Below are positions 462 to 51,600 of a stretch of 64,000 nt of DNA, one piece after another; within the stretch, counting starts at the first letter, position 1; every line of letters starts with the position of its first letter. The notes under the pieces are model-generated. The model was given only the letters and a program-made list of their open reading frames with translations. It searched no databases and had not been told where the DNA came from. Origin of the DNA: Amoebophrya sp. A120 (lineage: Eukaryota; Protista; Dinoflagellata). The translations under genes and the position numbers were made by a program. The stretch lies in the NCBI GenBank assembly GCA_905178155.1, contig CAJINV010000022.1:310001-374000 (forward strand), given 5' to 3'.

Positions 462-3400
462 ATGCTCGTGAATAGAGGCTTGGAGCAGTATCCGCCACCA
501 GGAGGACCGGGGTCGACGTCCTATCAACTGCAAATATGCCTGGGTCTGGAAGGATCCAACTTGTGATGCTGTCTTTGGATTCTGATTACAAGACTAATAA
601 TGATCATTAGCGCTATTCTGGGCCTCAGGCCCCCCCTCAGGCCCCCCCTTAGGCCCCCCCTCAGGCCCCCCCTCGACCCCTAAGGCCCCCCCTGAGGCCC
701 CCCCTCAGGCCCCCCATGAGGCCAAAAAAGGCCCCCCCTAAGGCCCCCCCTGAGGCCCCCCCTGGGGCCCCCCCTTTTGCCCAAAGGGGGGGGGTTAGGC
801 CCCCCCTTAGGCCCCCCCTTTTTTTCGTGTTCGCAGACGCCCAGAGCCAAAAAAGGCCCCCCCTAAGGCCCCCCCTGAGGCCCCCCCTAAGGCCCCCCCT
901 GATGCCCAAGGGGGGTGGGTTGGGTCCCCCCCTTAGGCCCCCTCTTTTTTTCGCGAGCGTTCGCAGACGTCTGGCACAGAACATAAAGCCAGGCAGATCA
1001 TCGCCGACCATTTCTTTGACGCAGGCAGCGACCGAACAATCCCGGGCGGCGCCACGCGCTGTCTACCTTGGCTGGTCCGCCGGTTCTCATTCTGATTGCG
1101 GGCGGGGCCGCTTTGGTTTTGGACACAATAAACAAAGTCACGAAGTGAGTCCTTGGCTTTGGCTTCATATTTTGGCTACCGCCCCGGCTTTGTCCTTTGA
1201 TTTTAATTACTGGCGGGGCCGCTTCGGAATGCATGACACGCATGCCCTGTAGCCCTCCTGGACAATGCTATGCGCTGCGCAGTCGAAGGCGCCGGCAAGG
1301 CTCTTCGGAATGCTTTTCGTTTTCTACCGAAAAGCCGAACGGGATACGAGGCCCTTCCTGAGGCCCCTCTAAGACCCCCCCTTTGGCCAGTCCGGAAGGG
1401 CCCTCGCTCCCTCGGGCGTTCTGCCCTGACGGTTTGCTTGCTTTGCTTGGAGGCCCGCTAAGCGAGCCCCGGCGCCGGCAAATGCCCGAGCCTGAGGCCC
1501 CCCGGAAGGCCCCCCCGCTGGAACAGGAGCCCTGAGGCCCCCCGGAGGCCGCCCCGGAGGCCCCCCCCGGCAGAGGCCCCCCCGGAGGCCCCCCCTTTGG
1601 TCAGCCCGGAGGGGCCCTCCTGTCTTCTGCCCTGAAGCTTTGCTTGCTTTGCGTGAAGGCCCGCCGGGCGAGCCCCGGCGCCGGCCAATGCCCGAGCCTG
1701 TGGCCCTATTCATTGACAGCCCTGAGGCATCCCTGCGGCCCCCCCTACGGCCCCCCCCAATGGCCCCCCCTAAGGCCCCCCCTTTGGCCAGCCCGGAAGG
1801 GCCCTCGCTCCCTTGGGCCTTCTGCCCTGAAGTTTTGCTTGCTTTGCTTGAAGGCCTGCCAAGCGAGCCCCGGCGCCGGCACTCACATGCCCGAGCCGGA
1901 GGCCCCCCGCAAAGCCCCCCCGAACAGAAGCCCTGGGCCCCCCCCATGGCCGCCCCGGGGGCCCCCCCCCGAAGGCCCCCCCTGTGGTCAGCCCGGGAGG
2001 GCCCTCGTGTCTTCTGCCCGGAAGCTTTGTGTGCTTTGCGTGAAGGCCCGGCCCGCCAAGCGAGCCCCGGCGCGCGCCGGCAAATGCCCGAGCCTGCGGC
2101 CCTATTGATGACAGCCGTGAGGCCTCCCGCATGGGCCCCCCCCCCAAGGCCCCCCCTGAGGCCCCCCCTTTGGCCCCCCCTTTGGCCCTCGCTCCCTCGG
2201 GCCTTCTGCCCTGAGGCTTTGCTTGCTTTGCTTGAAGGGCTGCCAAGCGAGCCCCGGCGCCGGCACATGCCCGAGCCTGGGGCCCCCCGCAAAGCCCCCC
2301 CGAACAGAAGCCCTGCGGCCCCCCGGAGGCCGCCCCGGAGGCCCCCCCTCGCCCTGCCCAGGCCCCCCCTTTGGCCAGCCCGGAAGGGCCCTCGTGTTTT
2401 CTGCCCTGAAGCTTTGCTTGCTTTGCGGGAAGGCCCGCCAAGCGAGCCCCGGCGCCGGCCAATGCCCGAGCCTGTGGCCCTATTGACAGCCCTGAGGCCC
2501 CCCCTAAGGCCCCCCCTGAGGCCCCCCCTAAGGCCCCCCCTAAGGCCCCCCCTAAGGCCCCCCCTGAGGCCCCCCCTGAGGCCCCCCCTTTGGGCAGCCC
2601 GGCAGGGCCCTCACCCCCTCGGGCCTTCTGCCCTGGTGCTTTGCTCGCTTTGCTTGAAGGCCTGCCAGGCGAGCCCCGGCGCCGCCACATTCCCGAGCCA
2701 GCCCGAGGCCCCCCGCCCGCAAAGCCCCCCCGAGCCGAAGCCTTGAGGCCGCCCCGGAGGCCCCCCCTAAAGCCCCCCCCTTTGGCCAACCCGGAAGGGC
2801 CCTCGTGTCTTCTGCCCTGAAGCTTTGTTCGCTTTGCGTGAAGGCCCGCCAAGCGGGCCCCGGCGCCGGAAAATGCCCGAGCGGGCGGCCCTATTGACAG
2901 CCCGGGGGCCCCGCCAAAGGCCCCCCTAGGGCCCCCCTTGAGGCCCCCCCTTTGGCCAGCCCGGAACCCCTCGCGCCCTCGGGCCTTCTGCCCTGAAGCT
3001 TCCCTCTGCTTGAAGGCCTGCCAAGCGAGCCCCGGCGCCGGCTCAATCATGCTTGAGCCGGAGGCCCCCCGCAAAACCCCCCCGATGGAACAGAAGCCCT
3101 GCGGCCCCCCTGCGGCCGCCCCGAAGGCCCCCCCCCGCCCGGCCGAGGCCCCCCCCTCTGGCCAGCCCGGAAGGGCCCTCCCTGTCTCGCTCCCTCGGGC
3201 CTTCTGCCCTGGAACTTTGCTTGCTTTGCTTGAGGGCCCGCCAAGCGAGCCCCGGCGCCGGCAAACGCCCGAGCCTGAGGCCCTCATGACAGCCCGGAGA
3301 CCCCCCCTAAGGCCCCCCCGAAGGCCCCCCCGGAGGCCCCCCCCGAGGTCCCCCCCGGAGGCCCCCCTAAGGCCCGCCCGGAAGGGCCCTCGCTCACTCG

Positions 3401-6400
3401 GGCCTTCTGCCCTGACGCTTTGCTTGCTTTGCTTGAAGGCCCGCAGAGCGAGCCCCGGCGCCGGCAGATGCCCGGGCCTGAGGCCCCCCGCGAGGCCCGC
3501 CCGAACAGAAGCCCCGGGGGCCCCCCCGACCGAGGCCCCCCCCATTGGCCGGGCCGGGCGGGCCCTCGCTCCCTCTCCCGGGCTTTCTGCCCTGAGCCTT
3601 TGCTTGCTTTGCGTGAAGGCCCGCCAAGCAAGCCCCTGCGCCGGCCAATGCCCGAGCCTGAGGCCCTACCGGCAGCCCTGCGGCCCCCGGGGGGAAGGCC
3701 GCCCCGGAGGCCCCCTCTAAGGCCCCCCCTTTGGCTAGCCCGGAAGGGACCTCGCTCCCCCGGGCCTTCTGCCCTGGAGCTTTGCCTGCTTTGCTTGAAG
3801 GCCCGCCAAGCGAGCCCCGGCGCCGGCTTCTTTTGCGTAGTTGCTGGGCGGAGGGGCGCCAAAAGATATTTCTGCTTTTCTTTTGAGTTGGCACACGGCC
3901 AGAACGAAGCCCAACCACTTCGGCCCGCCCGTCCCTTGCCTTGGTGCGTTTTTACTCGGCCGCCGCCCCTCCATCGCCCGGCCCCCCCCATCGATCGTCA
4001 TCCCGCGGCTGACGCCTTCGATAGATTAGCGCGCGCATGATCGGGCGCAGCAACTGAAGTCCCCACGCCCCGGAGGTGTTCTGGGTGTAGAAATAGGGCC
4101 GGGCCACCACAGTACGAACGCAAAAGCCCGGCGAATGTCTGCACCACGACACTCACTTGCCCCATCGCCGGGGCCGCATGATCAGCGGGGCCGCTTCGCA
4201 GTGTTGTTAGGTAGTTTATCACGCACCGGAGACGGCGCCTCGACTTGCCTGAGCCTTTGGGTCGCCACATTTCCGCTCCGCTTCCGCTGTGCAGGTGTCA
4301 GAAGGCCTGTCGGCTTCTTACTTCAGAGCTGGCAGGCAGCTGCTCTGTGTGTACCCGAGGCGCCTTTCTGCTTTCTGTCTACAGCTGCTGCCCCTACAAC
4401 TTTATGTAGCGCGCGCACTGATCTCCTGTCGCGCTACTCTTCCTGAGCGCTACCCCTGCCCCGCCCTTCCTCCTTCCCAGGAAGCCCAGCCCAACAATCC
4501 TAATGATCATGCTTATGCAAAAAAATCAAGTTCAAGAAAGGGTCGCCCTTCAGGGCGACCCGTTTTCTTGTAAAATTAAAATCTGTATTGCATGACTAGC
4601 AAGAGGAGTCCAGTTTATGCCATGTGGAGAACGGAGAGGGCATTTCCATTTCTCATGCGGAATAGGCATCGGGAAGCCCTTCTGTGACGGTAGGCCATGA
4701 ATTACAGGCGTCATGGGTCATGATGCAGAGTATGCATTACAAACCTGGCAGCCTTCCAGACCCAGACATATTTGCAATGCATACGTCCTCTCCGACCGGC
4801 GCGATGGAACAGACTACGACCATTTCCCCCACCCGGACGGCCGCCTACGGGATTAAACGCGACGTAAAGCGTGTGAACCCGGTTGCGCACGAGCATGTGG
4901 AGGAGATCGAGAAGCTACTGTTAACGGTGTCGAGGGAATTCCCAACGATCGGCTACACGCAGGGAATGCACGAGGTACTGATGTTCAGTTCTTCTGCAAC
5001 TTCCACCAGATGAGAAGATGCTTTTCTTCATCTTTTCTTCCATCGTTGAGATTTTCCATAGTTCTCGTCCCAGGCGGTTGTCCGGACCACTGGAGAGTCA
5101 TGCATTTGATGTTCCATTCAGAGATGTACGTAGATTGGCGTAGTCTTGTCATGCAAAAGAACCTGCTGCATCATTCCCGAACAAAACACAACAAGGTCGC
5201 CGCCGTTCTGGTCTACCGCCATTCTTCCATGCACGCTCTCCCCGGTTTATGTATCAAAAACGTAGTTCTTGTGTTGTGTACGTAGGACAAATAGCATAAA
5301 CTTCGCTCGGAAGTAACTCAACTTCTTATGCTGACCAAGGTACAGAAAAGACAGTTGTCACGCGTGACGGCAATTATGAAAGAATAGTACTGACGAACAA
5401 GATACTTTGCGATGCATAAACCTCCCCCTTGGACGACTTCCGAACGCTGCTGAGTAACTGCGGCGATATATCCTGAGTAAAAACGTACCCACACCAGAGT
5501 TGCAATGCAGATTTGCAAAGACAGGAAGACTTGTAACGCGCATCCCCATGAGAGCCATTTCTAATCGTGTTTTGGAATTTGTGATGCTGTGAACAGGATG
5601 AGCAGGCGCATCTGTGATGCGGCTGCACTTGCTAACCTGCACTACACTGCATAGTGCAACTTGTCATGCGTGACTCACAAAAATCCTAGGTTTGTGTTGC
5701 AAAATCCCCATCTTGACTCTGGTGCGGGTACGTTTTTACTCAGGATACGATATGTGGCGGGACGGCATGCCGAAAATTCACGAGGCGGTGCTGATTGTGA
5801 ATAACCTGCTCCACAAGCACTTACCCAGACTCCACCATCACTGGTTCACGTCCTGTCAGCCAAAGGTGGACACGCTGTCTATGGCGTTCTCAAACGTTAC
5901 ATTTTCAACTGTTACATGAATTTGTGATGCAAGAATGGGAAAAGTGAAAGGGGGAAGGCGGCACCTGTAGCATTACAAATTTCGCACAGATTTAGGTGCG
6001 GTCTAGCCCTTCGCAAATTTGTCATGCGAAGCAGCTTAATCATGAGGATGATGATGGTGCTTTTGCATGACAAATTCATGTAACAGTTGAGAGTGTAACG
6101 CTTGAGAACCCCATACTGTCAATCCTGCCGAACGGGTTGTTTTATGCATAATTGTGAAAGTAGTACTATCGCACTTCTTGCATTACAAAATTGCTCTGCA
6201 TGAAAAAAGAAAATCTGGAGTTCTTTGTCATGCTACTTCACCTTGGGAAGCAGATTTATCATGCAGTACAACTAGTACGAGTGCGATACTTAACTTTTGC
6301 AATGCATACACCAACCCTTTTCGTCCACTGGTTTGGGTTTGACAACGCCTGTCACCACGTGGTGTCCTTTCTCGTGAAGGAGAAGTACCCGGCTTTCCTC

Positions 6401-9400
6401 GCGGTTGTGCTATGAAGGCCTCAGAAGGGAAATCCTCAAAGTGAAAATAGTTTGTAATGCAAAAAAACACTCCAGTTGAAGCGCCACTTCTAGGGGGCGC
6501 ATGACAAATTTCCCGGGCACTCAAAGCATGTCTGTCATGCAGGTTAAGGCAAAGGGGTGCCCTTCTCTCGTGCTAATCAACACTCCAATTCTTAACCCGT
6601 AGGAAGACAATAGCCGGCCTCCATTGCGTCCTCTGCAATACAGTCTTTTTTGCGTCGCATTTCATGCATCACAAATTTGAGGATTTCCATTCTGAGGCTG
6701 TCATATGTGCTAGGCACGTTTGAGTACTTGGCGAACTCCGCCGGGATTTTGGAGCGAGATTTCGAAGAGTCCTATCCAAGAAAAAAACGTTGTTAGTGTA
6801 AATTTGTGATGCGCAACATGCAAGATGATTGCGTCTGTCATGCTTGGCATGCATCGTAGGGTCCATTGAAGGGCATTTTCGCATACTATCTGCGCATGAC
6901 AGGTTTTTGCTGTCATGCCAGACAAATTTGTAATGCTGTTCCTCCAAAAAAGTTACACCTACAATGTTTTTTTCTTGGATAAGTCCATGATTTACTTCAG
7001 TAAGGAGATGCTGATCCGGTTCCAGGTGTCACGTATCCCTTGCAGAATCATCTTCGCTCGCACTGCATCGAAATTTGCAACGGCTAAACTGCACGATATT
7101 GTGAACAAATGCACATGCTCGTCATCATAGTACTTATCCGCATTTACAAATTTCGTGCGCGTGCGCGCGCAGGTGGTTTACTTTTGCAGCAGGATACTCC
7201 GGCAAGAAGACGTGAACAGCTACAACAAGATGCAGAGAGTGTATCACAGGAAAAAGTGTTAACGTCAACGAAACTTGTGATGCAGCAATGCATGATCACT
7301 AAACGAATAAACGTGCCAAATAAATTTGTCATGCATAGCATGCGTATTGGGCTACATTTGTGATGCATGGCTGCAATCTGTGAATAAAACCTTTAAAAAC
7401 GTTAACACTTTTTCTTGGGATAGATTGCTGCAGGAAATCATGGACCTGGCGCGGGGGAAGTACTTGGCGATTGCAAAAGAGGAGTTAAAATACAGTGTGG
7501 AACCCAACCGCGAAATTTCGCCGGCGCCGAGTGTCGCCCAGTACTCGGTGAATTCAAATTCGTTCGGAACAAGAGGAGGTGTAGGTCCTGGAGCCATGGC
7601 AAATGTGATCCCCCTTACGGAGCAAAATTTGTCCCAGCTACCGCTGAAGTCCAGCGTAGACACGACGCAGCCGGCTGCAGGTGCGCAATATGGATTGCAA
7701 ATGTGTCTGGGTCTGGAAACTTGTGATGCTGGGCTGTGAACAGACAATGCCCTGTAATGCACAGCAGAACATAATGAGAAATATGTGCTCGGCTATAGTG
7801 CTGCGCTTTCTGCGTGACAAGCTGCGTTTTCGCATGACAAGGACAAGGGTCTCTTGTTGGACACACATCACAAGTGTTTCTGTCATGCCAGACAAGCATG
7901 ATAAGGATAACCTTGTTGTATCCTTCCAGACCCAGACATATTTGCAGTTGATACGCAAGGAAGTGGCGCTAATCCACGAACCACCGGACCAGGTAGTGTT
8001 CCAGGACCAGGCTCTGCAGTACCATTAGAGCAGTCTTACCTCATCTCTCCCCAGCAACAGCGGGAGCAGCAACGAGAGCGGGACTTGCAGCAGACCCTGC
8101 AGCAACAGCGACAACTGCAGGAACTGCAGCACCGACAAGCCGAGTTGAGTTACCAGCAAAACCGCCAGGTGCAGATTTCCAACGAACGGCCGGAGGAACT
8201 GAGCCCGTTTTTGCAGATCGGCGGAGCCAGGTCGAGTTCCAGCTTTCAGCATATGCACCGCAAATATGTCTGGGTCTGGAAAACTGCAACGTTTGTCATG
8301 CACATTTTTTTTACATGGCCGATGACATGATCCAGGGATCATTATATTTGCAACGCATACAGCAGGATCTACCAGCACGGTTGCCGCAGCAGCCGGCCTC
8401 GAAGGGTGGAATGACAATGCCGGGGACGAGTGTGAACCTAGGTATATTTAAAAAGACGTACCTAATTTAAGTATTTTGATACTTCTGTGGTCAGCTGACA
8501 GTGCATTGCTCACTGCTCGCCTTCCATATTGTCATCAATGCTGCAGCACGACAAGAAAAGCAAAGCAAACTCCTTCAGGTGGAGCTCCACCCCAGCAACA
8601 CCCCCATCCGTCCTCCAACAGCGTCGCTGAGACCGGTAGTGTATGACAATGCACAACTCCCCCTCCCCCTCATTTGTATAGCATGAACGGCAATACAAGC
8701 ATCCGCAAGAATGTCGGTTTTGCATGACAAATTTGCACTGGATTGTAGTGCTCTTTGGGCTTCCAGGATTTGTCATGCAAACAGTGCTACAAGGCAGCAG
8801 CTGGATTTGGGATTTTGCATTACAAAGGAGTGGGAAGGGGGGTTGTGCACTTTCATATAGTGCGAAAGGAAGCTACTTGATCAAACCGAAAAACTCCACG
8901 GCCTCCCGGCCCCAAGCGGACCGGCAGTACTTGGAACAACAGGTTTACGGCACCAGAGGGACGACACCACAGTCCGTACACAACAATAACCCCACAACCT
9001 CTACTCCGAACCGCAATCCGTATGGCGCGTCTAATTCCTACGCCGACGAATTTAGTCAGGAGCAGTTACTGAACCAACGGTCGCCGTCTATCGCAGCGGG
9101 ATATTCCGTTACCAGCAACCCAGGCGTGGGCGTTAATATTTCTGCAACATCAATAAACAATCCGTCACATGGAGGCGCTGGCGGTCCTGCCACACCCTCG
9201 CAGCAGCTGCATCAAATGAACCTCATAAACACTGCCGCAAGCAACAGCCGGAACACCAATAATTATCCGTTTCACGCGGACGATAGGAGATCGGACTACA
9301 ATTTTGATACCAGGACGAACAAATCCGAAAATAACCACCCTGGGTCGCAGATTCAATCGCAATTGGAAACGCAGTTGCAGCGGGTGAGTGACGACAACAA

Positions 9401-11593
9401 TGAGAAGAGCCGGAAGATCGCGGACTTGCAAGAACAACTGGCCCAAATGAGGCAGCAGAAGGAATCCGAAGTCGTGCAGCGGCTCCGGAAGGAGAGCGAA
9501 CTGGCGACGAACGAGAAGGAAACGGCAGACGCGGTGAAAAGTAATGCAGAAATGGCCCGCGTCATTGAGGATCTGAACATGAGGGAGAAGGCACTGAAGC
9601 AAAAAATATCTACTTATCAAACTATAAAAATGTTAGCGGTAACGGAATTTGTGATGCAGTAACGCATCAGAAATAAACGGCCCAAATTTGTATTGCGTAG
9701 CATGTATGGAAAGCAAAATTTGTAATGAGTGACTGCCATCAGGGAAAACCGTTAAGGTTGACACTTTTTTGCTTGATGCTACTATGGAAAAGGACATAGA
9801 GCAACACCACCAGAACATGGCCGCTGTTGCAGAGGGCAGAGCTTTATCGAATGCAAAAATGTCTCGGTCTGGAATAGTGTAACTTGTCACGCTACATGTG
9901 GATCGTGGAAGCATTTGCGTTGCATGATTACCAAAAGAGGCCCGCTTTTGAACAAGTTTAGAGGCAGTTTCTCATGCAGGAGCGGCATGATAGGGATCTC
10001 ACAGAACCTGTCATACCAGGCCGTGCATGGCAGACCGCGTGTGTCATGGAAAACCTGCATGACAAACCTACCAATCTTCCAGTCCCAAACATTTTTGCAT
10101 TTGATAAGTTTCCCAGGCTAAAGGACCGGATATATCGGACTACGCAGGGGAAACGGAGACACTTATGCATTGCAAAAGTATCGTACTCGTATTGCAATCA
10201 TGCATTACAAATCTTTCTCTTAAGGTAAATCAGCATTACAAATTTTATCTCTCATGCTGAGGAAATTTGTAATGCATTTATACGAGTACGATACTTTTTC
10301 CCTGGATAACACTGGAAATGGTACGATACTCAATAAGTGGTTGTTTTCGAATATTGTGAATGTAACAGTAAGTCTTTGAGATTCGGATGATTTCCGGATG
10401 AGAATAAGAATAACTAAAGCGGTACAAGTTGTAATGCAAAAAAGCAAATATTAACGCAGGTGGAGCAATTCCTTCGTGAGTACGACGCCGGCTGCAAGGC
10501 GGACGAAAAAAGCACCGCAAAACTTCTCCCCGACAGGAGAAGTGTCCCGTATGCCATGCAGGTCGTAAAATGGACGACGGAACAGAAGCAATTCCATAGC
10601 AATGGCGTGTATGCATCGCAAAAGTATCGTACTCGTCATGAAAATCGCATAGAATACTAAACACTTGTTTTTTCAAAAGGACAAGCGGAACTTGTAATGC
10701 GGAATCAAGTAAGGAAAAAGCAATCGACATACGAATGCGATACCTTTGCAGACTTGATAGCGTAAGCAGGTTTCACCGGCACCTGCTGAGTTTAGCACAG
10801 GAACGGATTATGGAGCTTTTGCCCTTCGAGGAGCAGGTAGAGGTGCGCACGGTCGAAATCGCGGAAACCAACAGCAAACTGGCCCAAAGCTTTGAGAAAA
10901 TCCGGTTCCTGACGAACAAACTGGAGGAAAAGAAGATGGAATACAGCGGGGCGAGCAACGTCACGACGCTACCGAGGGAAGGTACCAGTAGTTACAACAA
11001 TAGCTGTGTTTCATTTGTGATGCGCTTTTCCGCTTACTGACGAGTTGTGTGATGCAAAAACCGCATATCATGTGCCGTCGGATCAAAAGAACGTGAACGA
11101 GGACTACGACACCAAAAAAAAACAGATGCCGTCCGTCTCACGGAGGAAAATCAGAATCTTCAAAACCGTATAGCGTCCCTACAAGAGGAAAACGCGAGGC
11201 TCGCAGATGTGGAAGTGGAGAACGTGCAGTTACAACAGGAATATGAATTGCAAAAGTATCGCACTCGTATAAATGCATTACAAATTTTCTCAGCATGAGA
11301 TAGAAATGTAATGCGGATTCACCGTAACAAAAAAGATTTGTAATGCATGATTGCAATACGAGTACGATGCTTTTGCACAGGATAAGGAACTCCTCCGGTT
11401 TAAGCCCTACCCCGGGGCGGTTGGCGGGAGCACCACCAGCGCCAGTGGGGCGACCGCGGGTAACTACACGAATAACGCCGCGAACAGCTCCCCCACTACT
11501 TACACCACTTACCACGCCACGCCGTCTGTGGCGTATCACCTCATTACCGGCGGGGGCGGGTCGGTCTACCTGTCGGCGGGCCCGCGGGGGTGA
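462..11593 (+). CDS. TBC (Rab-GAP) domain protein with low-complexity linker and C-terminal coiled coil; 22 exons (16 TIR introns, 5 GT-AG introns)
   Basis: Manual splicing gives an open frame from ATG 462 to TGA 11593. Exons: 462-521, 4789-4974, 5196-5247, 5424-5468, 5753-5879, 6121-6142, 6314-6410, 6711-6772, 6987-7025, 7173-7241, 7428-7688, 7959-8251, 8365-8441, 8579-8641, 8863-9614, 9784-9844, 10112-10163, 10314-10320, 10460-10609, 10765-10981, 11126-11241, 11390-11593. TBC-type motifs: IKRDVKR, PTIGYTQGMHEVAAVL, LLHKHLPRLHHH, GLFTLF, AFLAVVLG, DFEES. Confidence 0.82.
620..945. repeat. ~12-bp C-tract minisatellite GGCCCCCC(C)TAA/TGA/TCA; G-quadruplex-prone on the minus strand
   Basis: Repeated ggccccccctaa/ggcccccctga units. 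The same unit recurs at 2495-2590. Confidence 0.85.
1370..3830. repeat. ~200-bp GC-rich satellite, about 13 units, largely alternating between two subtypes
   Basis: Core CTTCTGCCCTGAAGCTTTGCTTGCTTTGC..GAAGGCC..CCAAGCGAGCCCCGGCGCCGG near 1465, 1672, 1866, 2065, 2250, 2445, 2673, 2856, 3028, 3248, 3451, 3632 and 3812. Subtypes are marked by CTCGCTCCCTCGGG versus CTCGTGTCTT. Confidence 0.9.
4975..5195 (+). other. Canonical GT-AG intron
   Basis: GAG|GTACTG...ACAAG|GTC joins GMHE|VAAVL, the TBC motif. Confidence 0.75.
5248..5418. mobile_element. Degenerate TIR introner (B-like)
   Basis: TATGTATC...GATGCATA. Flanks CGGTT/AACCT are decayed, but removing element+5 nt gives ALPGSPLDDF in frame. Confidence 0.6.
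5469..5747. mobile_element. TIR introner family E
   Basis: TATCCTGAGTAAAAACGTACCC/GGGTACGTTTTTACTCAGGATA; direct repeat CGATA; frame restored (CGDMWR). Confidence 0.9.
5880..6115. mobile_element. TIR introner family F
   Basis: TATGGCGTTCTCAAACGTTACA/TGTAACGCTTGAGAACCCCATA; direct repeat CTGTC. Confidence 0.9.
6143..6308. mobile_element. Degenerate TIR introner family B
   Basis: TATGCATA...TTGCAATGCATA. Flanks TGTTT/CACCA match 0/5, yet removing element+5 nt gives NGLF|TLFVHW. Confidence 0.7.
6411..6705. mobile_element. TIR introner family G
   Basis: TATGAAGGCCTCAGAAGGGAAATCCTCAAA/TTTGAGGATTTCCATTCTGAGGCTGTCATA; direct repeat TGTGC. Confidence 0.9.
6773..6981. mobile_element. TIR introner family H
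   Basis: TATCCAAGAAAAAAA/TTTTTTTCTTGGATA; direct repeat AGTCC. Confidence 0.9.
7026..7172 (+). other. Canonical GT-AG intron with CAGGTG repeated at both junctions
   Basis: CAG|GTG...CAG|GTG; frame continues RFQ|VVYF. Confidence 0.65.
7242..7422. mobile_element. TIR introner family C
   Basis: TATCACAGGAAAAAGTGTTAACG/CGTTAACACTTTTTCTTGGGATA; flanks GAGTG/GATTG. Confidence 0.88.
7689..7953. mobile_element. TIR introner family A
   Basis: TIR core GTCTGGGTCTGGAA/TTCCAGACCCAGAC; direct repeat CGCAA. Confidence 0.9.
8252..8359. mobile_element. Short (108 bp) internally deleted family A introner
   Basis: TATGCACCGCAAATAT/ATATTTGCAACGCATA; direct repeat CAGCA; frame restored. Confidence 0.8.
8442..8578 (+). 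other. Canonical GT-AG intron
   Basis: TAG|GTATA...TCAG|GT; frame maintained. Confidence 0.6.
8642..8857. mobile_element. TIR introner family I
   Basis: TATGACAATGCACAAC/GTTGTGCACTTTCATA; direct repeat TAGTG. Confidence 0.9.
9615..9778. mobile_element. TIR introner family C (divergent)
   Basis: TATCAA...TTGATG; direct repeat CTACT; joins KIST|MEKD. Confidence 0.82.
9845..10106. mobile_element. TIR introner family A
   Basis: Family A TIRs; flanks AGCTT/AGTTT. Confidence 0.87.
10164..10308. mobile_element. TIR introner family B
   Basis: TIR core AAAAGTATCGTACTCGTA/TACGAGTACGATACTTTT; direct repeat ACACT. Confidence 0.9.
10321..10459 (+). other. Canonical GT-AG intron
   Basis: ATG|GTACG...ACGCAG|GTG joins LEM|VEQF. 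Confidence 0.6.
10610..10759. mobile_element. TIR introner family B
   Basis: Family B TIRs; flanks GCGTG/GCGTA. Confidence 0.85.
10982..11125 (+). other. Canonical GT-AG intron
   Basis: GAAG|GTACC...AAACAG|AT joins PRE|DAVRL. Confidence 0.65.
11242..11384. mobile_element. TIR introner family B
   Basis: Family B TIRs; direct repeat AGGAA. Confidence 0.9.
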
Positions 11594-12529
11594 AAAATCT
11601 TGTTGTGCTGGCCCTGGCAAGAGTCTCGCCAATAAGAAATTGAATACTTTTTTCAAACAAATTCAAATGCCTTTTAACGTGACACGACTCACGATGATGT
11701 ATCAGAAATACCTACTTACTTTTTACGCTTGAGTTGTGCCTAAAGAAGCCAGCACGACATGCATGAATTATCATCGCGCAGACAAATGCTTCGCATGCCA
11801 GATCTAGACAATGACAACCATAAGTGCCACTGACGCTTAACCTTTAGGCATAAAATTAAAAATAAATAGAATGCAGGCAATAAAGCCAATCATAGCAATT
11901 TTCGTTTCAACTAATAGCATCACCAGCGCTAGCGCAGAAAAATGTCAAAATAGCAAAGAAAGTATGAACTACTTTACCAATTACGATTCAAACGTTTCCT
12001 TAGAAGCCACGAGGTGGGCAGCAACTCAAGCATCCTCGCGCACGACAGCAGCGGAATTTTATGTACAATTAGCGTGCTGCGATGATTATCCACCGATGTG
12101 CTTGATCTAACACTTCTAACAGATTTTTCAGATTTTTTGATGTACACAATGTTTGTATAGGCACGAAGAAAATAAGTACAGCAGACTACAGCACCATGCG
12201 GCAGTAGACACTGCGAATCTACTTCACTGCTTCTGGCATCGGCGTCGTGCTGGTTCTTCCGAGTAATATGATCTGCTTCTCGACGAAAAGCGTTTATCTT
12301 TTTTTTTCTTTGGGCTGCTCGACAGCGACACCGGTACAGAAGCGCTGGATCAACAAGCCCACGCGGCTCACAGTCACCACGGCCGGAACAAAAATTTACG
12401 TCTGTCGTGCTCCTTCTAAAGTTACCTTTATATACTTCTTCTACCGCTTGCGCATAGATCGTTTTTGGCCAGCACAAACATTACACCTTGTAGGACCGTT
12501 TGGTTCTGTCTCGCTCTTTACACTTCAAA

Positions 12530-15500
12530 ATGGATGCCCCACCAGGCCAAGAACTTCCAGACACTTTGGTGCCCCCAGCACCTCCTGCTCCACCGTCTTC
12601 CCCAGGAGGCTACCGTGGTCTCCTCGGCGTGGGCGCGACCTTGCTAAAAAGGTTGAAATTCCTTGCCAAAGTGAAGGCGCTCCTGCTTTCTAACAAGGAG
12701 ATGATTGCGAACAAAGCAGGATCTTTGGCAGCATTGCCGTTTTTGCAACCGCATCAAGGGCGACAACTTTTGGGAGACCGCTCTAGTAGAACAAGCACTT
12801 GCGAATCAACATCATCTTCTTGTTCTGGAAGCAGCAGTCTCGGAGCGGCGGCTCGCCAGTCCTTGCCCAGACCTCAGACCCCTTGCGATCGACTCCTGCC
12901 CGACTCCGAGGCCGCTCGTGAAACAAAATTGCCAACTTGCTGCACAGCTTCAACGTGCCCACTCTGTGGCGCAGCGTGGTACTACAACTCTTCTGCAGAT
13001 AAAGATCTTGCTGGGGGTAAGTCATCTTGCTCAATGTTGAGCACTACTTCTACACCAGCAGCAGAACAGCCGAACCCCGACGTGCCGCCCTGGGTTTGGG
13101 AGCACATTCACTCAGACTTTTTCCTGCGCTGCCCGCCCAGGGAAAGTGACGAGGAGAGAGGGGATTCTTTCGCCAGTAACTCGCATTCTCTCATCCTGCC
13201 GAGGAAGAGAAGCAACCCGAATCTCGGCAGTGGAGGTTCCGAAAGTACAACTACTAGTCGTGACACAACAACTAGTATCTCCCCTCCTTACGCGAGAGTG
13301 AACCCAAATCCTCCCAGAACCGCCACAGACCCCGATCAGGATGAAGATTTTGACAAACATGTCGCGAGGAAGCTGATCGACTTTCTGAACCACGAGCTAG
13401 CCCTTGACGCGGTTTCGCAGCAAATGAACGACCTAGCTTACGAAACGAAAAAGCAGAGAAACTTGATGACGTGGCTACACGAGCAGATTGACAATGTTTG
13501 GGAAGAGAGGGGATTGGTCTTTCAGAACCTGCGCGAGAACTTCATGCACAGCGGTACTGTTGACCCCGACAGCGAGACGGCGCTGACGGTAAGGATATCT
13601 AAAGGAAAAATCCCCCCTCCCCATACTGAAAAGGTGTATTTTTGGAAATTTGTGATGCTGATTTGTGGTCACAAATCGTGTCTTCTGCAAGAAGGCAAAC
13701 GCAGAAGGCCGCAAGCATTATCCCGGCGGTTTGTAATGCTGCTGGACCTACGTCATGGACTTTTGTCATTCTGAGCGCGTAGGCCAAAACCTCCCCACTC
13801 CGGTTTGATATAGGCCTGCAGTCCTCTACAGCAAGACAAGGCTGATTTGTGTACGCAAATCCAGCAACAGAAATTTCGTTTTGATATGGGGTGGGAGGGA
13901 TTTTTCCCTTTGATACAGGACCGACTTGGCTTTGTCGCGGGACAAGGTGAAGCGGATACAAGCCGGATTGGACCCGTCGTATATCCAGAACGCAATCCGG
14001 AAATTTTTGTTTATCAAAAGGAAAAATCCCCCCTCCCCATATCGAAAACGAAATTTGTGATGCTGGATTTGAGCACATATCAGATTTGCCTTGCTGAAGA
14101 GGACTGCAGGCCCACATCAAGCCTGAGTAGATGTAGAGAGGTTTTGGCCTAGGCGCTTAGCATGAGAAACGTCTGCGCTGTAGGCCAAACAGCATCTGCA
14201 TCACAAACCGCCTGCATAATGCGGCGGAGCCTGTGGAGTTGCCTTCTTGCAAGACAGAGATCATTTGTGGTCGCAAATCAGCATTGCAAATTTTCTGAAG
14301 CGTACCTTTTCGATATGGGGAGGGGGGATTTTTCCCCGGGATATTGTTCCGGGAGAAATTTCTGAAACGGCGGGGAAGTAGTAGTAGCTTCAGAAATAGG
14401 CATCGGATGGTCGACGTCAGCACGGGAGGTGGACGGGGCAGCAGCAGTCGTGCAGCGTCTCTTGATTTGGCGAAATTTAACTCCAACTCTTTCGCCAATC
14501 AGGTCTCTAACAGAAACGACGGTGGCTTGCAATTACTGACAACTTCCAGACTTTTCAAGCAAAACCGAGACAAAGTGCAGGAACGGTTAATCAGAGACCA
14601 ACCGCGGCCCGTCCCGGTTGTTTTGAAAAAGGGAGTTTACCAGTGCGGGCATGATTACGGGTACATGAGTGTATGCAATACAAATTTCCCGTACATGTAC
14701 AAGATGCATCACAAATTTCGCCAATTTGGAGCGTCAAACTTGTCATGCTAAACTAGGATCGAGGCCAAGTTTTGTCATGCAGAGACCGCATGTGTACGTG
14801 TACAGGAAATTTACTGTGGATAGAGCAACGAGCAAGTTTACGAACTGATGTCCTACAAGTACGAGGGTGCCGTCCATTCCGAATTGCGAAGCGCTCCGAA
14901 GAACACCCACCACCAGTGGCTCAGCCCGGTGGTGCATGAGACGGACGTTTTGCCCTACCAGCTGTTTGGATATGGGAGTGCACAACCCCCCTCCCACTCA
15001 TATGTAATGCGAAACACCCAATCCACCTCTTGCTTTCAGGCTCTGTTTGCATGACAAATTTTGGAACCTAAAACAGTACTACAATCTGTGTGCAGATTTG
15101 TCATGCGAAAGGCCCATTTGTCCCGTTTCTTGTGTTGCTACGCATTCACCTCAAATGAGGGGGAGAGGGAGTTGTGCACTTTTATATTGGAAACAAGGCT
15201 CGGAAGTGGATGCTGCTGCGAAAGGATTGGACCTTGGAAGATATTCAAATGCCAGACGCAGATGAAGTTGTAGACGAGAGAATTATAGCGGCGGATGTTG
15301 GTGAACGTGAAGAGGACGCCTTGTTCGCCGGCGAAACTAGGGAAGAAGAGGAAACAGTACACCACGAGACCGGCGCGAAAGTGGATCAGAATCCCGCAGA
15401 TCCTCGTGCTGGGCGAACCAACAGGCATAAAGCCGCCTACCACTTTACCTACCCAATAGCTTTTCGCAACGAAGAGGAACGACAAACAGCTGTGATGCAC

Positions 15501-17119
15501 AACCGAAGGACCACATCAATAAGGCAAAGCCGTGTCACATCAACACCAACATCATCTTCACCAAGCGCCGCAGTGTCAACTCGAGATGATTCGTCCCGTG
15601 GTGGTAGTGCCACCAGTGGCACATCATCAACGACAAACTCAAGTTCAACTTCTAACCTCCGCGAAGATGATTACAGTACAACTCCCGTCGGTGACCACGC
15701 AGAGGAACAGCCAGCAGCGATGTTTGAATCTCTCATGGAGGTTCACGTCGACGCCGGTGGTATTTTCGCCGAGAGTATCAAATGTAAAAACGTCTGGGTC
15801 TGGAAGAGTGCATGTATGTCATGCTGGTCTGGCATGAATCTTAAATCTGTCATGCACGTTGCCCAAGAGCCGCACTTCTCTGTCATGCGGAGACGCAATT
15901 TGTCATGCAGAATAGGCAACACCTACAAGCTCAGAAATTTCTCATGCTGAGCCAGCACTTCTGGCCTCCTCATGCTGCGCCACTCAGCATCACAAGTTTC
16001 CAGACCCAGACACTTTTGCATTTGATAGAGAGACTCGAAAACATGCTGGACCTGCGGGAGCGGTTTTTCGACCGAATGGTCCGGACAAACAACGCAGATC
16101 ACTGGACGCTATGCATTGCAAAAGTTAAAGTATCGTACTAATGGAAAAAATCGCATGACAAATGTCCTCAGCATGAGAGGACACGGAATTTGTAGTGCGG
16201 ATTTGCCTTGAAGACCAGATTTGTAATGCGGAATTGCAATTAGTGCGATCTTTTGCACAGGATAGACGCCCTTTTTTCGCACCTGGAGGATGAGCTTTCC
16301 GTTTGAACACCGACTGTCCTCGTTTTCCAAAAAGCCAGTGGTGGATTTCGATTCGGTAGAGGATTTCGCGAGGGAGAATGGGCTGCTTGTTTATTCCGAA
16401 GGTCCTCGTGAAGGTCGTCGATCATCTTCTCAACAAGACCACCGAAACAAAAATCATGCGGGACAGAATCAGAAACAACAAAGAGCAACTCCAGGCGGAA
16501 CAAGAAAATTTTCACCAGAACAAGAGCAACACCAGCTTCTATCAGACTCGCAAAAGGCCTTCCTCGAGGATAAGATCGACACCACGACCCGCGGGCAGCA
16601 CCACGCCGGGAGTTTAGACTATGCATTGCAAAAGTATCGTACTAGTATAAATCGCATGACAAATTTCCTCGGAATGGAAAATGGAATTTGTCATGCTGAT
16701 TTACCTTGCGAACCAGATTTGTCATGCATATCTGCGATTAGTACGAGTGCGATGCTTTTGCATTTGATACAGACGACAAGGACGTAATCCGGAACGGGAG
16801 AAATATGGAATACTTGGTCGCCGAATCCAAAACCGTCTTCACGATCATCACTTGCCAGGTCCAGAACGAACCGGCGCGGCTCCAGAACCTGGAAAGAGCG
16901 AACTTTTTCCGGTTGGGCGGACAGTTTTTTGAGCGGGAACGGGATGCGGCGGTAGAGAACAACTACTGGGGCTGTGGGTACAATGTTTGCACCCGGATGA
17001 AAAACGACGTGAACGACGGGAGTGTCAAAACGTTGAACCCAAACAATGGTGTGACGAAGCGCAAGTTGGGGCTGGGGCTGAACGGGGGGATGATGGAACA
17101 AGTAGAGGTGGATATTTGA
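12530..17119 (+). CDS. Hypothetical protein, 8 exons separated by 7 TIR introns
   Basis: Open frame MDAPPGQ...EQVEVDI* after removing the elements at 13596, 14012, 14672, 14971, 15776, 16110 and 16620, each plus 5 nt. No domain recognised. Confidence 0.75.
13596..13915 (+). mobile_element. TIR introner family D, orientation 1
   Basis: TATC..AAGGAAAAATCCC..CCCCATA TIR; flanks AAGGA/CAGGA. Confidence 0.88.
14012..14343 (-). mobile_element. TIR introner family D, orientation 2
   Basis: Direct repeat TTGTT. Interior is the reverse complement of the 13596 copy. Confidence 0.88.
14672..14822. mobile_element. TIR introner family J
   Basis: AAATTTCCCGTACATGTACA/TGTACGTGTACAGGAAATTT with TAT..ATA ends; flanks GAGTG/GAGCA. 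Confidence 0.8.
14971..15186. mobile_element. TIR introner family I, opposite orientation to the 8642 copy
   Basis: Direct repeat TTGGA; joins QLFG|NKAR. Confidence 0.9.
15776..16027. mobile_element. TIR introner family A
   Basis: Direct repeat GAGAG. Interior closely matches 39825-40085. Confidence 0.9.
16110..16264. mobile_element. TIR introner family B
   Basis: Family B TIRs; direct repeat GACGC. Confidence 0.88.
16620..16769. mobile_element. TIR introner family B
   Basis: Family B TIRs; flanks TAGAC/CAGAC. Confidence 0.88.
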
Positions 17120-17689
17120 AGACGATCATGAAGATACGGGTTTCTTTGTCTTCTTGTTCTTTGCCTTTCCACTTTATTTTTGTGCGAGAACGAGTAGTTG
17201 GACGCGGGCGTGGGCTGAGGTATTTCGCGTAGAAGATTCTCTGACAACTTCAACTTGCTCATCTATGTCTGTTTCAAATAAACTTTGTCGTGTCAGTGCC
17301 AGCTACTAGGCGATTAGTTTGCTTACTTACTCGCCGGTGGCGAGGTTTTAGTTTTTGGATTTTTCCTGCTGTATGCTGTAACTCATCTTCTCAGACGAAC
17401 CGAAATAGTCCGGCAAAGTCGTTCGCGTGCGTGTGGCTGTCTGATGATTTCACCTGTTGGCGTCATTGTCTGAGAAAGGTACTTTGATGACGGCTGCGGA
17501 CCTTTGACGCAACTTTGGGAATACAGAATCACACTGAAATTAATCTTTTTAGATTACGCCATAATCATGATCGAGGCTCGTTTTATTTATCGTTTGTGTT
17601 CCCGTATTAAGTTCCGTCAAAAGCTTAAGACTCTTCTGTAGCAACATGCCGGGCGTCTTCGTGTCTTTAGCTTTATGGGTTCTCTAACA

Positions 17690-19480
17690 AAAATATATTG
17701 AGTGGCGGCACCGGGGGGAGGAATTCGCGGCCGAATTCACCAAGTGGATCCGCAAAAAGATCGCCAAAACCGGCAAGGTCGGGGATGACTTCACGAATTT
17801 GCCGACGGCGGGGCAGGTGGATCACAAGGCGAAGAGCGGGAAAACGCGCCAGATACTGGGGGGCGGGCCCCAAGCGAATGAGCCCGGAGAGAGCCGGCGG
17901 GCGGTTTTGTTTTCGCAGCAAACTACTGCCGCGCGGCCGGGCTGCTCGGATCGATGTACCGCCGACGGCCTCCGGCTTGGCGGGCGCTTTCACCGCCCTG
18001 CCCCGAAACCGCTGCGAAGGCCGCGGGGCCGCTACCTAGGCATCCGGTAGGCGCCCCGATGGGCCGCGGCCGAGCAAACAGCCCCGCGGCCGGGGGTTCG
18101 GCTAGTCTGTCTGTCCGGCCCGCGCACGCTGCCCCCCGGCCTACAGGGGGCGGCGCCCCATTGCCCCCGCGCCCCGCGGCGCATTGTGTGCTTGCCCCGT
18201 GGACGAAATCCGGGGGGGCCGCCTGGGCGTACGCAGCTGGCGCGCCCCCCCGCCTTTGCGCCTTGCCTGGCTGCCTCGCTCAATTAAAGGCGCGGGCCAC
18301 CGCCTGCAGCCGAGTCGCGAGCGTGGCGCGCGGTGCGTGCCGGCCAAGATCGGCGGAAGCGAAGGGCCTGCGGGGCGGTCGGCGGGCGCGCCCCGGCCGG
18401 CGGGCCTTCGCGCTTGCCTTTGGGGCGCTTGTTGTGCGTGGCCGGAGGGCTGGGCTTTGTGGGCGATTGTAGTACTGCGGCCGTCGAGAGTAATGTCGCC
18501 GATTTTATGGCGATGCATGCCCTCCCGGCTACCTTTAGCGGAGGCGGCGAGCGTCTGCATCGGTTCGCGCGATGTACGACCTAAAGCCGACTAATACCTT
18601 CCCGGAACCTTTCGCCTCGCTTACCCAGGCCGATGCGAATTACCGGACTACGACGGGAGGGCGCACCCTTGCAGACCGCAGCCCCTCCAACAAGATTGCG
18701 GCGCAGTATCCGCAGCGGGCCGCCCTTCCATGAATCGCCCGCGCAGAGCGGGGCCGGGGCGGCTTCCGCCGCGAACTTGCCCCAGTAGAATGGGAGCAAC
18801 TGCAACAAGGCGCGGCGCAAATGGCGGGGCGGTTGATAACCCTCGGCGCCCGGCCTGCGGACTACCAGCGCCCCGCATTGCGGCGCCCCGTGCCGTGTGT
18901 GGCGCTGCCTGTTGGGCCGCTGTGCCTGCCTGTTTCCCGGCAATGGCCCGGGCCGGGCGGGCCGATAAAGCGCGCACGGTGGCGCAGCCCGCCATCGCGT
19001 ATCTGCGTGCGTGGGCGCCCGCCGCTTGGGAGGGTAGGCAGGTTCCTGCCCCCGTAAGCAATCGGCCCACTGCTTAGGCATGCGTGGCCCGTGTCAGGAG
19101 TGCCGACTCCTTCGGCCAGCCTGGCACGCATCATCGAGCCGCCCGGCCGCCCCTCGCTCCCCGTACCTAGCTGGCGCGCGTCGCTTGGCGGGGTAGTGTC
19201 GCCGCAGGGGCAGGCCATGCATGCGCCGATCGATGCTTGGGTGTCTGTGTGTTGTGGCGATTCATTGGCCTGGCCGCGCGCGGCACCCCACCGGCCCGCC
19301 GCGCTTTCATTTTCATGCGTGTGCCAACCTTTGCACACCTGCCAAGTAAGATGCTTGGCCCCTGCTGGGCAAATAGGCTGCTAGCTGACAACGGCTGCCC
19401 GGTTGCCATTGCCCGTGCAGATGCGTCATTATGTCGACCGCTACCGGAAGATGTTCTGTTTGATGCGAATGCATGTTGTG
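17690..19480. other. GC-rich intergenic island, probably a decayed mobile element or pseudogene
   Basis: Abrupt rise in GC content relative to the flanks. No long credible ORF, but a protein-like remnant (YIEWRHRGEEFAAEFTKWIRKKIAK) at its left edge. Confidence 0.4.
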
Positions 19481-48638: not shown

Positions 48639-51600
48639 ATGATGTTGAGCTTGGACCATCTCCTTCTGCCTCGACGTATGTCGGCAGCTGTCTCTCCGTC
48701 GGCATCGGCATTTCGATGGAAATGGTGTTGTCGCCAGCTTTTCCTGCTCTCGTTCTTGACAACGAGATTTTGCCATGCGGTTGAGGGAAGCGAGGAGTCC
48801 CCCGAGCCGGTCGGAGAAACCGCGAAGAGCAGCCACGATGCCAATGCCGCCCCCGCGAACCCCCCGTCGACTACCAATATTAAACAGCAACCGAAATCCC
48901 TTTCCCAAAAATTCACCGCAAAACTCAACTACATTACCGAGCGCTACCCCCACGTCGCGCCATTTTCCAGTGCGAAGGAGCAGTGGCTGCGGGGCGATCC
49001 TGCGCCTTTTCGGTGCCCCGGCGTTCCGAAAGCGGCGACGTTCAAAGCGAAGTATTTGTTGGAAAAGCATCGCACTGCTAGGATAAGTTGCAGTTGTCAT
49101 GCATGACAGATCCGCATGCGCATGCTTGCTTGAATCAGAATCCGCATGAGAGACTCCATTTTCCTTTCTTTTTTAGCGTATAAGTTGTCTTGCAACTACT
49201 TTTAAGTACTAGTAGGATGCTTTTCCAATGCATACCAGGCTGCTGCATGCGAAATGTCGGCTGACGATGGACATTGAGGTCGATGGCGAATCAGAGGCAG
49301 AACAGCCTAGCGCAGGCGAGGAAGTATGCATTGCAAAAGAACAAGAAGTATCGTACGTACTAGAAGAAATCGCGTGGCAACATATTTCACGAAGATGACA
49401 ACTGGGGTTTGTCATGCATCGCCAGGTAAGATAGAAGGCGAATCTGTCACGCATGACTGCGATTTTACGAGCGCGATACATTTCCATTTGCAATGCATAG
49501 GAAGAAGGACCTGACAAGAGAAGTGCCGGAGGCAGTAGTTGCGCAAAAGTGGCCCAGGAGATCATCGCGCGGGTACGCGGCGAAAAGAATAAAGAAAAAA
49601 AGAAATGGCAGGATCCGCACAACGGCGGGAAATACGCGGTGGCGGACGAGGAAGTATGAATTGCAAAGCTACGTATCGTGCTTGTAGTCTTACATTTACC
49701 ATTTTTCTTAGCTGCATGACGCATGGATGATGAATTGGGCACGCTGATTTATCTTGGCAAGTAGATTTGTCATTGGCATGGTGCATGATTGTGATTGCAA
49801 CTACGAGCGAGATTTTGCTTTTCCGATGCATAGACACTACCAATTGTGAACGTGTTCGACCTCGGGAGCAAGAGCAAGAAGGTGCTAAAGAAACTGGGAG
49901 CAAAACCCCCACCGACGAAGGACAAACCTTGGATCATACGGGTGCAACGGATGACAAACATGAAAGACCCAGCCGGAGAGCCACTGCCGGCGGAAAAGCA
50001 GTACACGGACAAAGTGAGCCTGGTTCTGGTCGACGGGGGATCATCCCCTGGCAAGTGTAAAGTGTTCGGCTGCTCTATGGAACTGTCAGGATCGAAATCG
50101 GCAAAGTTGAGATGATTTATCATGCATAAAATGGATGCCGGTTGTAACCCAGTTTCCAAGTGACGCGTGACAAATCTGGGTAGAGCCGAAATCCTGTCTG
50201 TCATGCTGTTTGGGTAAGGAAGACGCCATTTTTCATGCTACTTTAGCAGCTCCATTTCTGCCCCTCAACAGGCTTACAATCTGTCTCACTTGCCTACTCT
50301 GCAAGACAGGCACTTTGTGGGTTGTGTTTTATGCGTGACGACCTTTTTCAACTTTGACGATTTCGATCCTGACAGTTCCATATGCTCCGAATCCCAAGTT
50401 TTCTCCATGTTGGACGGGTCGACCAACTACTGCAACCTGCGGAATCTGGTATGCTATTCGATGGTGCAAAAGTTGGAGAGATATCGCATATTTTGCTTGT
50501 GGTTGGATGAAGGTGGAGTAGAACTGCAAGAAGAGCCTAACTTGCAGTGCGCAAGAAGTAGATTTCTTTGCAGATACCAGCGGCACTACGATGTATGCAA
50601 ACACGGTTTTGACCACTACACTCATCGATATCATCAACTTTTGCAAACCGCCTGTATAACTCCGGCGCAGCGGACGGCTGTCCGTTTGTGCACCATTCCT
50701 TCGCGAAGGTCACCTCGAACCCCGACGGTAAGGACCAGCGCTGCACACAACACGATAACGCTATGTGCAACACGGGACCAGCCGCTCTACAACTTCCTAA
50801 GGCACCGGCGGAGGAGGAGGCAGTAGAAGCAAAGGACAGTGGCGGCGAGAAGGCGGAGGAGGATGTAGATGCTAACGCAGACCACGGCGATGTTCAAGAT
50901 GAGCAGGGGCGGGACGGTACAAAAACAGAAGAGAATGCAGATGCAGACGAGCCCCAACCTGAAGTGCAAGATGAACAGGATGAAAAAGTGGACGAAGCGG
51001 AAGCGCCAGGGGCTCCTTCTGGTGAAACAGCTGCAGAAGATGCTGATGAAGCAATGGACTCGGTGGCGAAAGAAGTAGATGCGGGTAAGCCAGAGAAGAA
51101 ATCGTCGAAAAAGGAAAAAGACAAAGCGAAGGACAAGGACAAGGACAAAACGAAAGACAAGGACAACGAAATTAAAGTGAAAGAGAAGGACACAGCGAAA
51201 GACAAGGACAAGGACAACAAAGCGAAAGACAAGGACAAAGACATCAAAGCGAAAGACAAGGATAAATCGAAGGACAGCAGGAAATCTTCAAAATCAAAAA
51301 AGCCGATGTCCTCCAGGACCACTACCATCGAAGGCAAAAAACCTGCGGAAGATGCAGATGCGGGCGCAGACGAGCCCGCGCCTGAAGTGAAAGAACAAAA
51401 GGAGGACGAAGCGCAAGCTGTAGCTGCTTCTGGTGAACAAGGAGCAGAAGATGCTACTGACGCAAAGGACTCGGCGGCGAAAGACGATGTAGGTAACACG
51501 GCGGCGAAAGACGATGTAGGTAACACGGCGGCGAAAGAAGATGCGGGTAAGCCAGAGAAGAAGTCGAAAAAGGACAAGGACAGAGCGAAAGTAGACAAGG

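What the first reader, a model, noticed from the sequence alone, without database searches (positions are those of the whole stretch)
5248..6313. Excision geometry (TIR stem plus 5 nt) persists after the direct repeat has decayed
Seen: at 5248, 6143, 49655 and 50455 the two 5-nt flanks share only 0-2 bases, yet element+5 nt still restores the frame. Keeping the left copy gives the expected residues at two sites: TBC-like GLF|TLF at 6143 (the right copy gives GSP) and the conserved Cys in LVC|G at 50455 (the right copy gives LDS). At 5248 and 6143 the flanks are instead partly complementary (GGTT/AACC; GGGTTG/CAACCC), extending the stem. Inference: cut sites are measured from the hairpin, 5' at the first T and 3' five nt past ATA, which suggests a staggered, structure-guided cut-and-ligate reaction and argues against RT template-switch artefacts that need repeats. 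Caveats: frame only fixes the offset modulo 3, and site 49053 weakly favours the right copy.
Basis: partly seen in the sequence, partly recalled or inferred. Interest (0 to 1): 0.85.

Follow-up and report, generated by a model that had tools for sequence, protein, structure and literature searches.

The report
Hairpin introns cut at fixed offsets
These are the already described transposon-derived hairpin introns of the marine parasite Amoebophrya; transcript assemblies show they are removed even when their flanking repeat has decayed, with cuts that likely sit one base before and four bases after the hairpin, which points to a likely modified spliceosome as the still unknown splicing machine.

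Summary
The window is Amoebophrya sp. A120 DNA. The TAT…ATA elements are its published introners (PMC7789003). The flank decay is real: 37 of 52 elements keep a perfect 5-nt repeat, 15 do not. Spliced transcript contigs fit removal of element+5 nt; across the stretch holding 5248 and 6143 the predicted and observed lengths are both 492 nt.

Cutting after repeat position 4 is the only register that fits all 5 informative RNA sites and all 3 informative sites of an annotated protein. The mRNA thus takes four bases from the left copy and the fifth from the right. The A25 ortholog reads GLLTLF at 6143, as this predicts, not GLFTLF.

In this register TAT fills intron positions +2 to +4, like the GTAY of the gene's ordinary introns. 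That favours a relaxed spliceosome over a cut-and-ligate enzyme (inferred).

Limits: junction letters at 5248 and 6143 were not read; a random-register null is rejected only weakly (P about 0.06); stem-extending flanks are not general.

The parts
462..11593 (+). Host gene: Rab-GAP TBC-domain protein of about 1,000 aa, split by 17 TIR introners and 4 GT-AG introns
   Evidence: Pfam PF00566 on two exons, below the curated cut-off as fragments; open frame; A25 ortholog P0007; spliced contigs in X1 and X3. First exon 462-520 is inferred.
5248..5418 (+). Introner TAT…ATA, flanks CGGTT/AACCT; predicted intron 5247-5422 (TT..CC)
   Evidence: removal length by subtraction from 492 nt; retained bases not read
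5469..5747 (+). Introner with perfect repeat CGATA
   Evidence: colinear with ortholog after removal
5880..6115 (+). Introner with perfect repeat CTGTC
6143..6308 (+). Introner, flanks TGTTT/CACCA; predicted intron 6142-6312 (TT..CC); junction codon TTA (Leu)
   Evidence: Ortholog GLLTLF matches only the 4+1 register; fold z -4.8; retained bases not read in RNA
4975..5195 (+). Ordinary GT-AG intron (starts GTAC)
   Evidence: RNA piece ends 4972; TBC continuity and length
7034..7196 (+). Decayed introner, flanks TCACG/CTCCG
   Evidence: Found from a 168-nt residual in the RNA length
7242..7422 (+). Introner GAGTG/GATTG; RNA keeps left base at position 3
   Evidence: RNA piece starts 7426
10610..10759 (+). 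Introner GCGTG/GCGTA; RNA keeps RIGHT base at position 5
   Evidence: RNA piece starts 10760 with 0 other letters
13596..13915 (+). Introner AAGGA/CAGGA; RNA keeps left base at position 1
   Evidence: RNA piece ends 13591
14672..14822 (+). Introner GAGTG/GAGCA; exact junction 14670|14827, intron 14671-14826 (GT..GC)
   Evidence: RNA piece ends 14670 and 139 nt follow before the next shown piece
16620..16769 (+). Introner TAGAC/CAGAC; RNA keeps left base at position 1
   Evidence: Adjacent RNA pieces 16615|16771
49053..49234 (+). Introner CGAAG/CCAGG; in the 4+1 register a GT-AG intron 49052-49238
   Evidence: P0001 reads KAK|LL, registers 4 or 5
49655..49832 (+). Introner GGAAG/GACAC; predicted intron 49654-49836
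   Evidence: P0001 reads EE|LPI, registers 3 or 4
50455..50658 (+). Introner TATGC/ACTCC; predicted intron 50454-50662
   Evidence: P0001 reads LVC|GA, registers 4 or 5

Best explanation
These are MITE-like transposon insertions of Amoebophrya A120 that are absent from transcript assemblies and are likely spliced out by a relaxed U2-type spliceosome, which likely cuts one base before the TAT and four bases after the ATA of the terminal hairpin. Shown: TIRs with 5-nt target duplications; present in DNA contigs, absent from RNA contigs; removal of element+5 nt whether or not the repeat survives; cut between repeat positions 4 and 5 at 14672, and compatible with it at 7 other sites. Inferred: the register is the same at every element, including 5248 and 6143; TAT is read as +2 to +4 of a GTAY-like donor with +1 free; the hairpin holds the two ends together and sets the 3-prime site by distance instead of by AG, standing in for the U1 that was not found in this organism. 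Because one repeat's worth of bases is always kept (4 left + 1 right), a new insertion leaves the mRNA unchanged, and the five intronic repeat bases are then free to decay.
For: Register 4 is the only one fitting 5 of 5 informative RNA sites and 3 of 3 informative P0001 sites, and gives the best score against the A25 ortholog (444 vs 440 for register 5 and 430 for 0). The gene's 4 ordinary introns start GTAC, GTAT, GTAC, GTAC, so N-TAT differs from them only at +1. All 52 left ends keep TA; the two that changed read TAC, while 3 right ends lost part of ATA (small numbers). G at +1 is in 7 of 15 decayed against 7 of 37 intact elements (one-sided p=0.047). 49053 becomes GT-AG. In the published Table S4 all 9 commonest A120 non-canonical motifs start N-T and none starts or ends TA; all 9 for A25, whose repeats start TTA, start TT, which puts T at +2 and A at +3 in both strains (my inference). 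U2, U4, U5, U6 and 83 of 89 spliceosomal proteins were reported in A120, U1 not. Right-copy bases at mismatched positions 1-4 are C in 15 of 27 (7.7 expected, p=0.002), as if that copy changes directionally.
Against: No lariat, branch point or enzyme was tested. If each site were cut at a random register, a common register would still fit with P=0.45 (RNA sites alone) or 0.056 (with P0001). The three sites that directly show a right-copy fifth base all have G on the left, so a GT preference (of the cell, or of the aligner behind P0001) could explain them; the only non-G test is ortholog conservation at 6143. At 5248 the ortholog (ETTPL) is closer to the right-copy reading (PTSPL) than the left (PGSPL), in a poorly conserved loop. 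Only 14 of 52 introns start GT, 4 end AG and 1 has both in this register. Table S4 motifs may be shaped by the read mapper. The source paper calls the sites variable relative to the hairpin.
Confidence: 0.6

Rival explanations
1. Same fixed stagger, but made by a non-spliceosomal endonuclease and ligase that recognise the TAT/ATA stem, as proposed for Euglena nonconventional introns.
For: +1 and the last two intron bases are free, which a normal spliceosome does not tolerate (established knowledge). Euglena nonconventional introns have fixed 3-nt and 5-nt spacers around a paired CAG/CTG, and one was reported to leave as a circle (PMC12501133). U1 was not found.
Against: The register puts T and A at +2 and +3 exactly as in the organism's GT-AG donors, in both strains; old elements drift to G at +1, and one is fully GT-AG. 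The Euglena paper reports that hybrid introns are rare there, whereas 15% of canonical A120 introns carry such repeats.
Confidence: 0.25
2. The length removed is fixed but the cut slides within the repeat, snapping to a GT when one is present; register 4 is typical only of G-containing sites.
For: All three direct position-5 tests are G sites; weak rejection of a random register; ortholog hint at 5248; the paper's 'variable' sites.
Against: Non-G sites 50455 (4 or 5) and 6143 (ortholog, 4) also fit; CT, AT and TT starts are among the nine commonest A120 motifs.
Confidence: 0.12
3. The spliced forms are reverse-transcriptase template switches across a hairpin, or DNA alleles lacking the elements.
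For: Hairpin plus direct repeat is the classic substrate for such artefacts (established knowledge); X1 and X3 are contigs whose RNA status is a guess in the record.
Against: One contig lacks all the elements and also the GT-AG introns; the junction at 14672 lies outside the shared bases; a DNA-type contig spans 4759-5495 with the 5248 element in place; the TBC protein is colinear with its A25 ortholog only after removal.
Confidence: 0.03

Closest known systems
Amoebophrya sp. A120 introner elements (Farhat et al. 2021, PMC7789003)
   Same: Same organism, 8-20 nt inverted repeats starting TAT + 7 nt + AAA, 3-5 nt direct repeats at the borders, repeated, removed from RNA, hairpin model already proposed.
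   Different: The paper leaves the border position unknown or variable (Fig. 3 legend; Fig. S23 legend gives 1-5 nt). In the parts I read it does not state a 1-nt/4-nt register, the likeness to GTAY donors, or persistence after repeat decay.
Euglena nonconventional introns (PMC12501133)
   Same: MITE-like origin, terminal stem, frequent direct repeats, fixed unequal spacers; the register was solved there from non-slidable introns, the same logic as here.
   Different: Motif CAG/CTG with 3-nt and 5-nt spacers, against TAT/ATA with 1 and 4; thought to be non-spliceosomal; unrelated lineage.
Micromonas and Aureococcus introners (as summarised in PMC11282704 and PMC7789003)
   Same: Non-autonomous TIR DNA transposons whose target duplication is split by splicing so that the mRNA is restored.
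   Different: They bring or co-opt canonical GT/GC and AG; here neither end need be canonical.
Fritillaria (tunicate) non-GT-AG introns (PMC13326754 search listing; passage in PMC11282704)
   Same: Precedent for a spliceosome adapted to mass non-canonical, transposon-derived introns.
   Different: Those keep their own terminal motifs and altered U2AF/U1; no terminal hairpin term was found in the paper.

Membership tests
Amoebophrya A120 introner elements | Occurs in A120 genes | tested here: met
   P0001, named Amoebophrya sp. A120, is encoded exactly by 48639-51908 after splicing
Amoebophrya A120 introner elements | Terminal inverted repeat starting TAT, about 7 free bases, then AAA | tested here: met
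   In 58 ends of 29 seed elements (chosen for TAT), positions 11-13 are A in 46, 48 and 52
Amoebophrya A120 introner elements | 3-5 nt direct repeat at the borders | tested here: met
   Perfect in 37 of 52; decayed at 5248 and 6143 themselves, and decay tracks TIR decay (Spearman -0.38, p=0.005)
Amoebophrya A120 introner elements | Repeated in the genome | tested here: met
   Summed contig depth in run X5 is 10^4-10^5 in many element-bearing bins against about 50 in unique bins; the bin holding 5248 is at unique depth
Amoebophrya A120 introner elements | Removed from the transcript | tested here: met
   15 of 15 element ends checked match the RNA pieces shown; 5248 and 6143 by length sum only
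U2-type spliceosomal intron | GT…AG ends | tested here: not met
   1 of 52 in register 4; 14 start GT, 4 end AG
U2-type spliceosomal intron | Donor positions +2 to +4 match the organism's ordinary donors | tested here: met
   TAY in 52 of 52 elements and in 4 of 4 ordinary introns of the gene; elements were sought by TAT, so this rests on the register
U2-type spliceosomal intron | Lariat, branch point, dependence on U2/U6 | not testable with these tools
   Needs lariat reads or inhibition experiments
Euglenid nonconventional intron | Paired CAG/CTG with 3-nt and 5-nt spacers | tested here: not met
   TAT/ATA with 1 and 4
Euglenid nonconventional intron | Terminal stem joining the ends | tested here: met
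   Predicted at 5248 (z -1.4, weak) and 6143 (z -4.8)
Euglenid nonconventional intron | Excision as an end-joined circle | not testable with these tools
   No raw reads of this strain were laid
Non-autonomous TIR DNA transposon (MITE) | Cognate transposase | tested here: inconclusive
   No Pfam hit in 3 long frames inside the 4.26-kb element; whole genome not held

The most novel reading that the evidence does not exclude
Amoebophrya A120 runs a U1-less spliceosome in which a transposon's terminal hairpin replaces recognition of both G+1 and the 3-prime AG: every intron is N-TAT…ATA-NNNN, so any insertion of these elements into an exon is spliced out without a scar from the first day.
Probability: 0.5. 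Interest if true: 0.8.

Novelty: already known. Interest (0 to 1): 0.5.

Why it matters
How Amoebophrya removes tens of thousands of introns without GT-AG ends and apparently without U1 is an open question since 2021, and the direct repeats hid the true cut sites. Decayed repeats expose them. A fixed 1/4 register names the first and last base of every such intron, so lariat sequencing, reporter mutations and a genome-wide recount of existing RNA-seq become simple tests. If it holds, a spliceosome that takes both ends from an RNA hairpin would explain how a transposon can fill exons at little cost. The elements themselves are not new.

Tried and rejected
No whole genome was held, so no genome-wide count of left against right substitutions. 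No listed holder was on record as RNA. Raw RNA run X8 put 145 of 3.3 million records on the stretch, all on repeat bins, so it says nothing about junctions; X2, X4, X6, X7, X9 and X10 were never laid. One search showed only 24 pieces (21,386 hidden) and 15 joints (1,949 hidden), all joints from repeats; the junction letters at 5248, 6143, 7034 and 9845 therefore stay unread. The TBC gene's own annotated protein was not found with two exon queries. A metagenome scan found no relative. P0002-P0006 are short fragments that stop at or near the first intron and were left out of the junction comparison. Earlier-finding look-ups returned nothing. Rejected: complementary flanks as a general compensation for repeat loss; cuts measured from the helix end; right-copy retention at 49053. 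The paralogous elements at 46710 and 50455 align only over about 20 nt of their left ends, so shared origin is unresolved. No snRNA sequence text was in the supplement; its figures (S19-S25) and Fig. 3 logos could not be seen and may show more about the register than their legends.

Full report
Identity. An exon at 49840-50073 matches one protein at 100%, P0001, named Amoebophrya sp. A120, and the window encodes it exactly after splicing five elements. Farhat et al. 2021 (PMC7789003; I read the abstract, sections 10, 11, 12, 16 and 25, passages, and supplement legends and Table S4 as text, not the figures) describe these elements: inverted repeats starting TAT, 3-5 nt direct repeats, more than 60% non-canonical introns, U1 not found, border position unknown. 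The elements are therefore known.

Catalogue. Pair and profile scans gave 52 elements that I could pair by eye; a few unpaired ends were left out. 37 have a perfect 5-nt repeat and 15 do not; mismatches per position are 6, 7, 7, 7, 4. Repeat decay tracks decay of the inverted repeat (Spearman -0.38, p=0.005), so these look like older insertions.

RNA. Runs X1 and X3 (contigs, RNA by guess) hold spliced contigs of two genes in 4000-18000; X5 holds unspliced pieces, one spanning the 5248 element. Only 24 pieces were shown. In X3 record 3 the five gaps between pieces fit element+5 nt once four GT-AG introns are allowed. I chose those four partly by length, so that test is not fully independent; they do give an open frame of 978 codons. 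The gap holding 5248 and 6143 is 492 nt, predicted 492. Whether these contigs are independent of the data behind P0001 is not known.

Register. The tool places joints leftmost; 10 of 10 perfect-repeat ends checked behave so. At the five mismatched sites with a shown end, the registers allowed (number of repeat bases kept from the left copy) are 3-5 at 7242, 0-4 at 10610, 1-5 at 13596, 4 alone at 14672 and 1-5 at 16620. P0001 allows 4-5 at 49053, 3-4 at 49655 and 4-5 at 50455. The A25 ortholog P0007 aligns without a gap across 6143 and reads GLLTLF, which only register 4 gives. Against this: a random register per site would still leave a common one with P=0.45 for the RNA sites and 0.056 with P0001; the three direct tests of position 5 are all G sites; the annotation used aligners that may prefer GT; and at 5248 the ortholog has T where the left copy gives G and the right copy T, in a loop with a 2-residue gap. 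The bases kept at 5248 and 6143 were not read in RNA.

Complementary flanks. GGTT/AACC at 5248 stacks on the stem; at 6143 most of the extra pairing is between coding bases beyond a 3x3 loop. Over all 15 decayed sites there is no excess pairing (37 against 37.8; 11 of 31 mismatched bases pair). One DNA-level template switch that copied the complement of the left flank over right positions 1-4 would explain 5248 in a single step (inference). The longer stem did not move the cuts, judging by frame and length, so the ruler is anchored on TAT/ATA and not on the helix end.

Mechanism. In register 4 the intron is N-TAT…ATA-NNNN. The gene's four ordinary introns start GTAC, GTAT, GTAC, GTAC, so the element supplies +2 to +4 of a normal donor. 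G at +1 is commoner in decayed elements (7 of 15 against 7 of 37, p=0.047), and 49053 is GT-AG. Table S4 lists nine commonest A120 motifs, all starting GT, CT, AT or TT, and nine for A25, all starting TT; A25 repeats start TTA. Both put T at +2 and A at +3. Mapper preferences could shape that table. I judge a relaxed U2-type spliceosome, positioned by the hairpin, the likeliest machine (0.6), ahead of a Euglena-like non-spliceosomal route (0.25), a sliding G-seeking cut (0.12) and artefact (0.03). No catalytic step was tested.

Literature. Seven searches found no paper stating this register; the library lacks most subscription papers, including the journal version of Roy et al. 2023, whose preprint I saw only as a listing. 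Seen: PMC12501133 passages and Discussion; PMC11282704, PMC12130899, PMC12005148 and PMC13326754 passages only.

Verdict. Interest 0.5.

Noticed in passing
window 522-4783: A 4.26-kb introner with a perfect CGTCC repeat; its core (about 606-4503) is a GC-rich tandem-repeat insertion with TTAG…CTAA ends and a duplicated TGATCA. The exon 462-520 joins in frame across it, so it is probably spliced as one intron. No Pfam hit in three long frames.
   Followed up: partly
window 45960-48090 and 48639-51911: Tandem paralogs; both carry an element at the same LVC|G codon boundary (46710, perfect TCTGT; 50455, decayed). One old insertion or two at one site is unresolved.
   Followed up: partly
window 9615, 39058, 39825, 41575, 46710: Five elements keep a perfect repeat but have a changed end (ATG or ACA on the right, TAC on the left); 9615 still fits element+5 removal in RNA.
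   Followed up: partly
15 elements with mismatched flanks: The right copy has C at 15 of 27 mismatched positions 1-4 (7.7 expected), an unexplained directional bias at the intron's 3-prime end.
   Followed up: partly
window 462-11593: The expressed TBC gene with 21 introns was not found in the protein collection by two exon queries, although its A25 ortholog is there; it may be missing from the A120 annotation.
   Followed up: partly
throughout the elements: An internal motif TTGT[C/G/A]ATGC and its reverse complement occurs 106 times in the window, seemingly mostly inside elements; a possible transposase-binding or branch-related signal.
   Followed up: no
window 53288-56398 and 57225-58949: Long uninterrupted frames for a VWA plus alpha-kinase protein and a SET-domain protein.
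   Followed up: no
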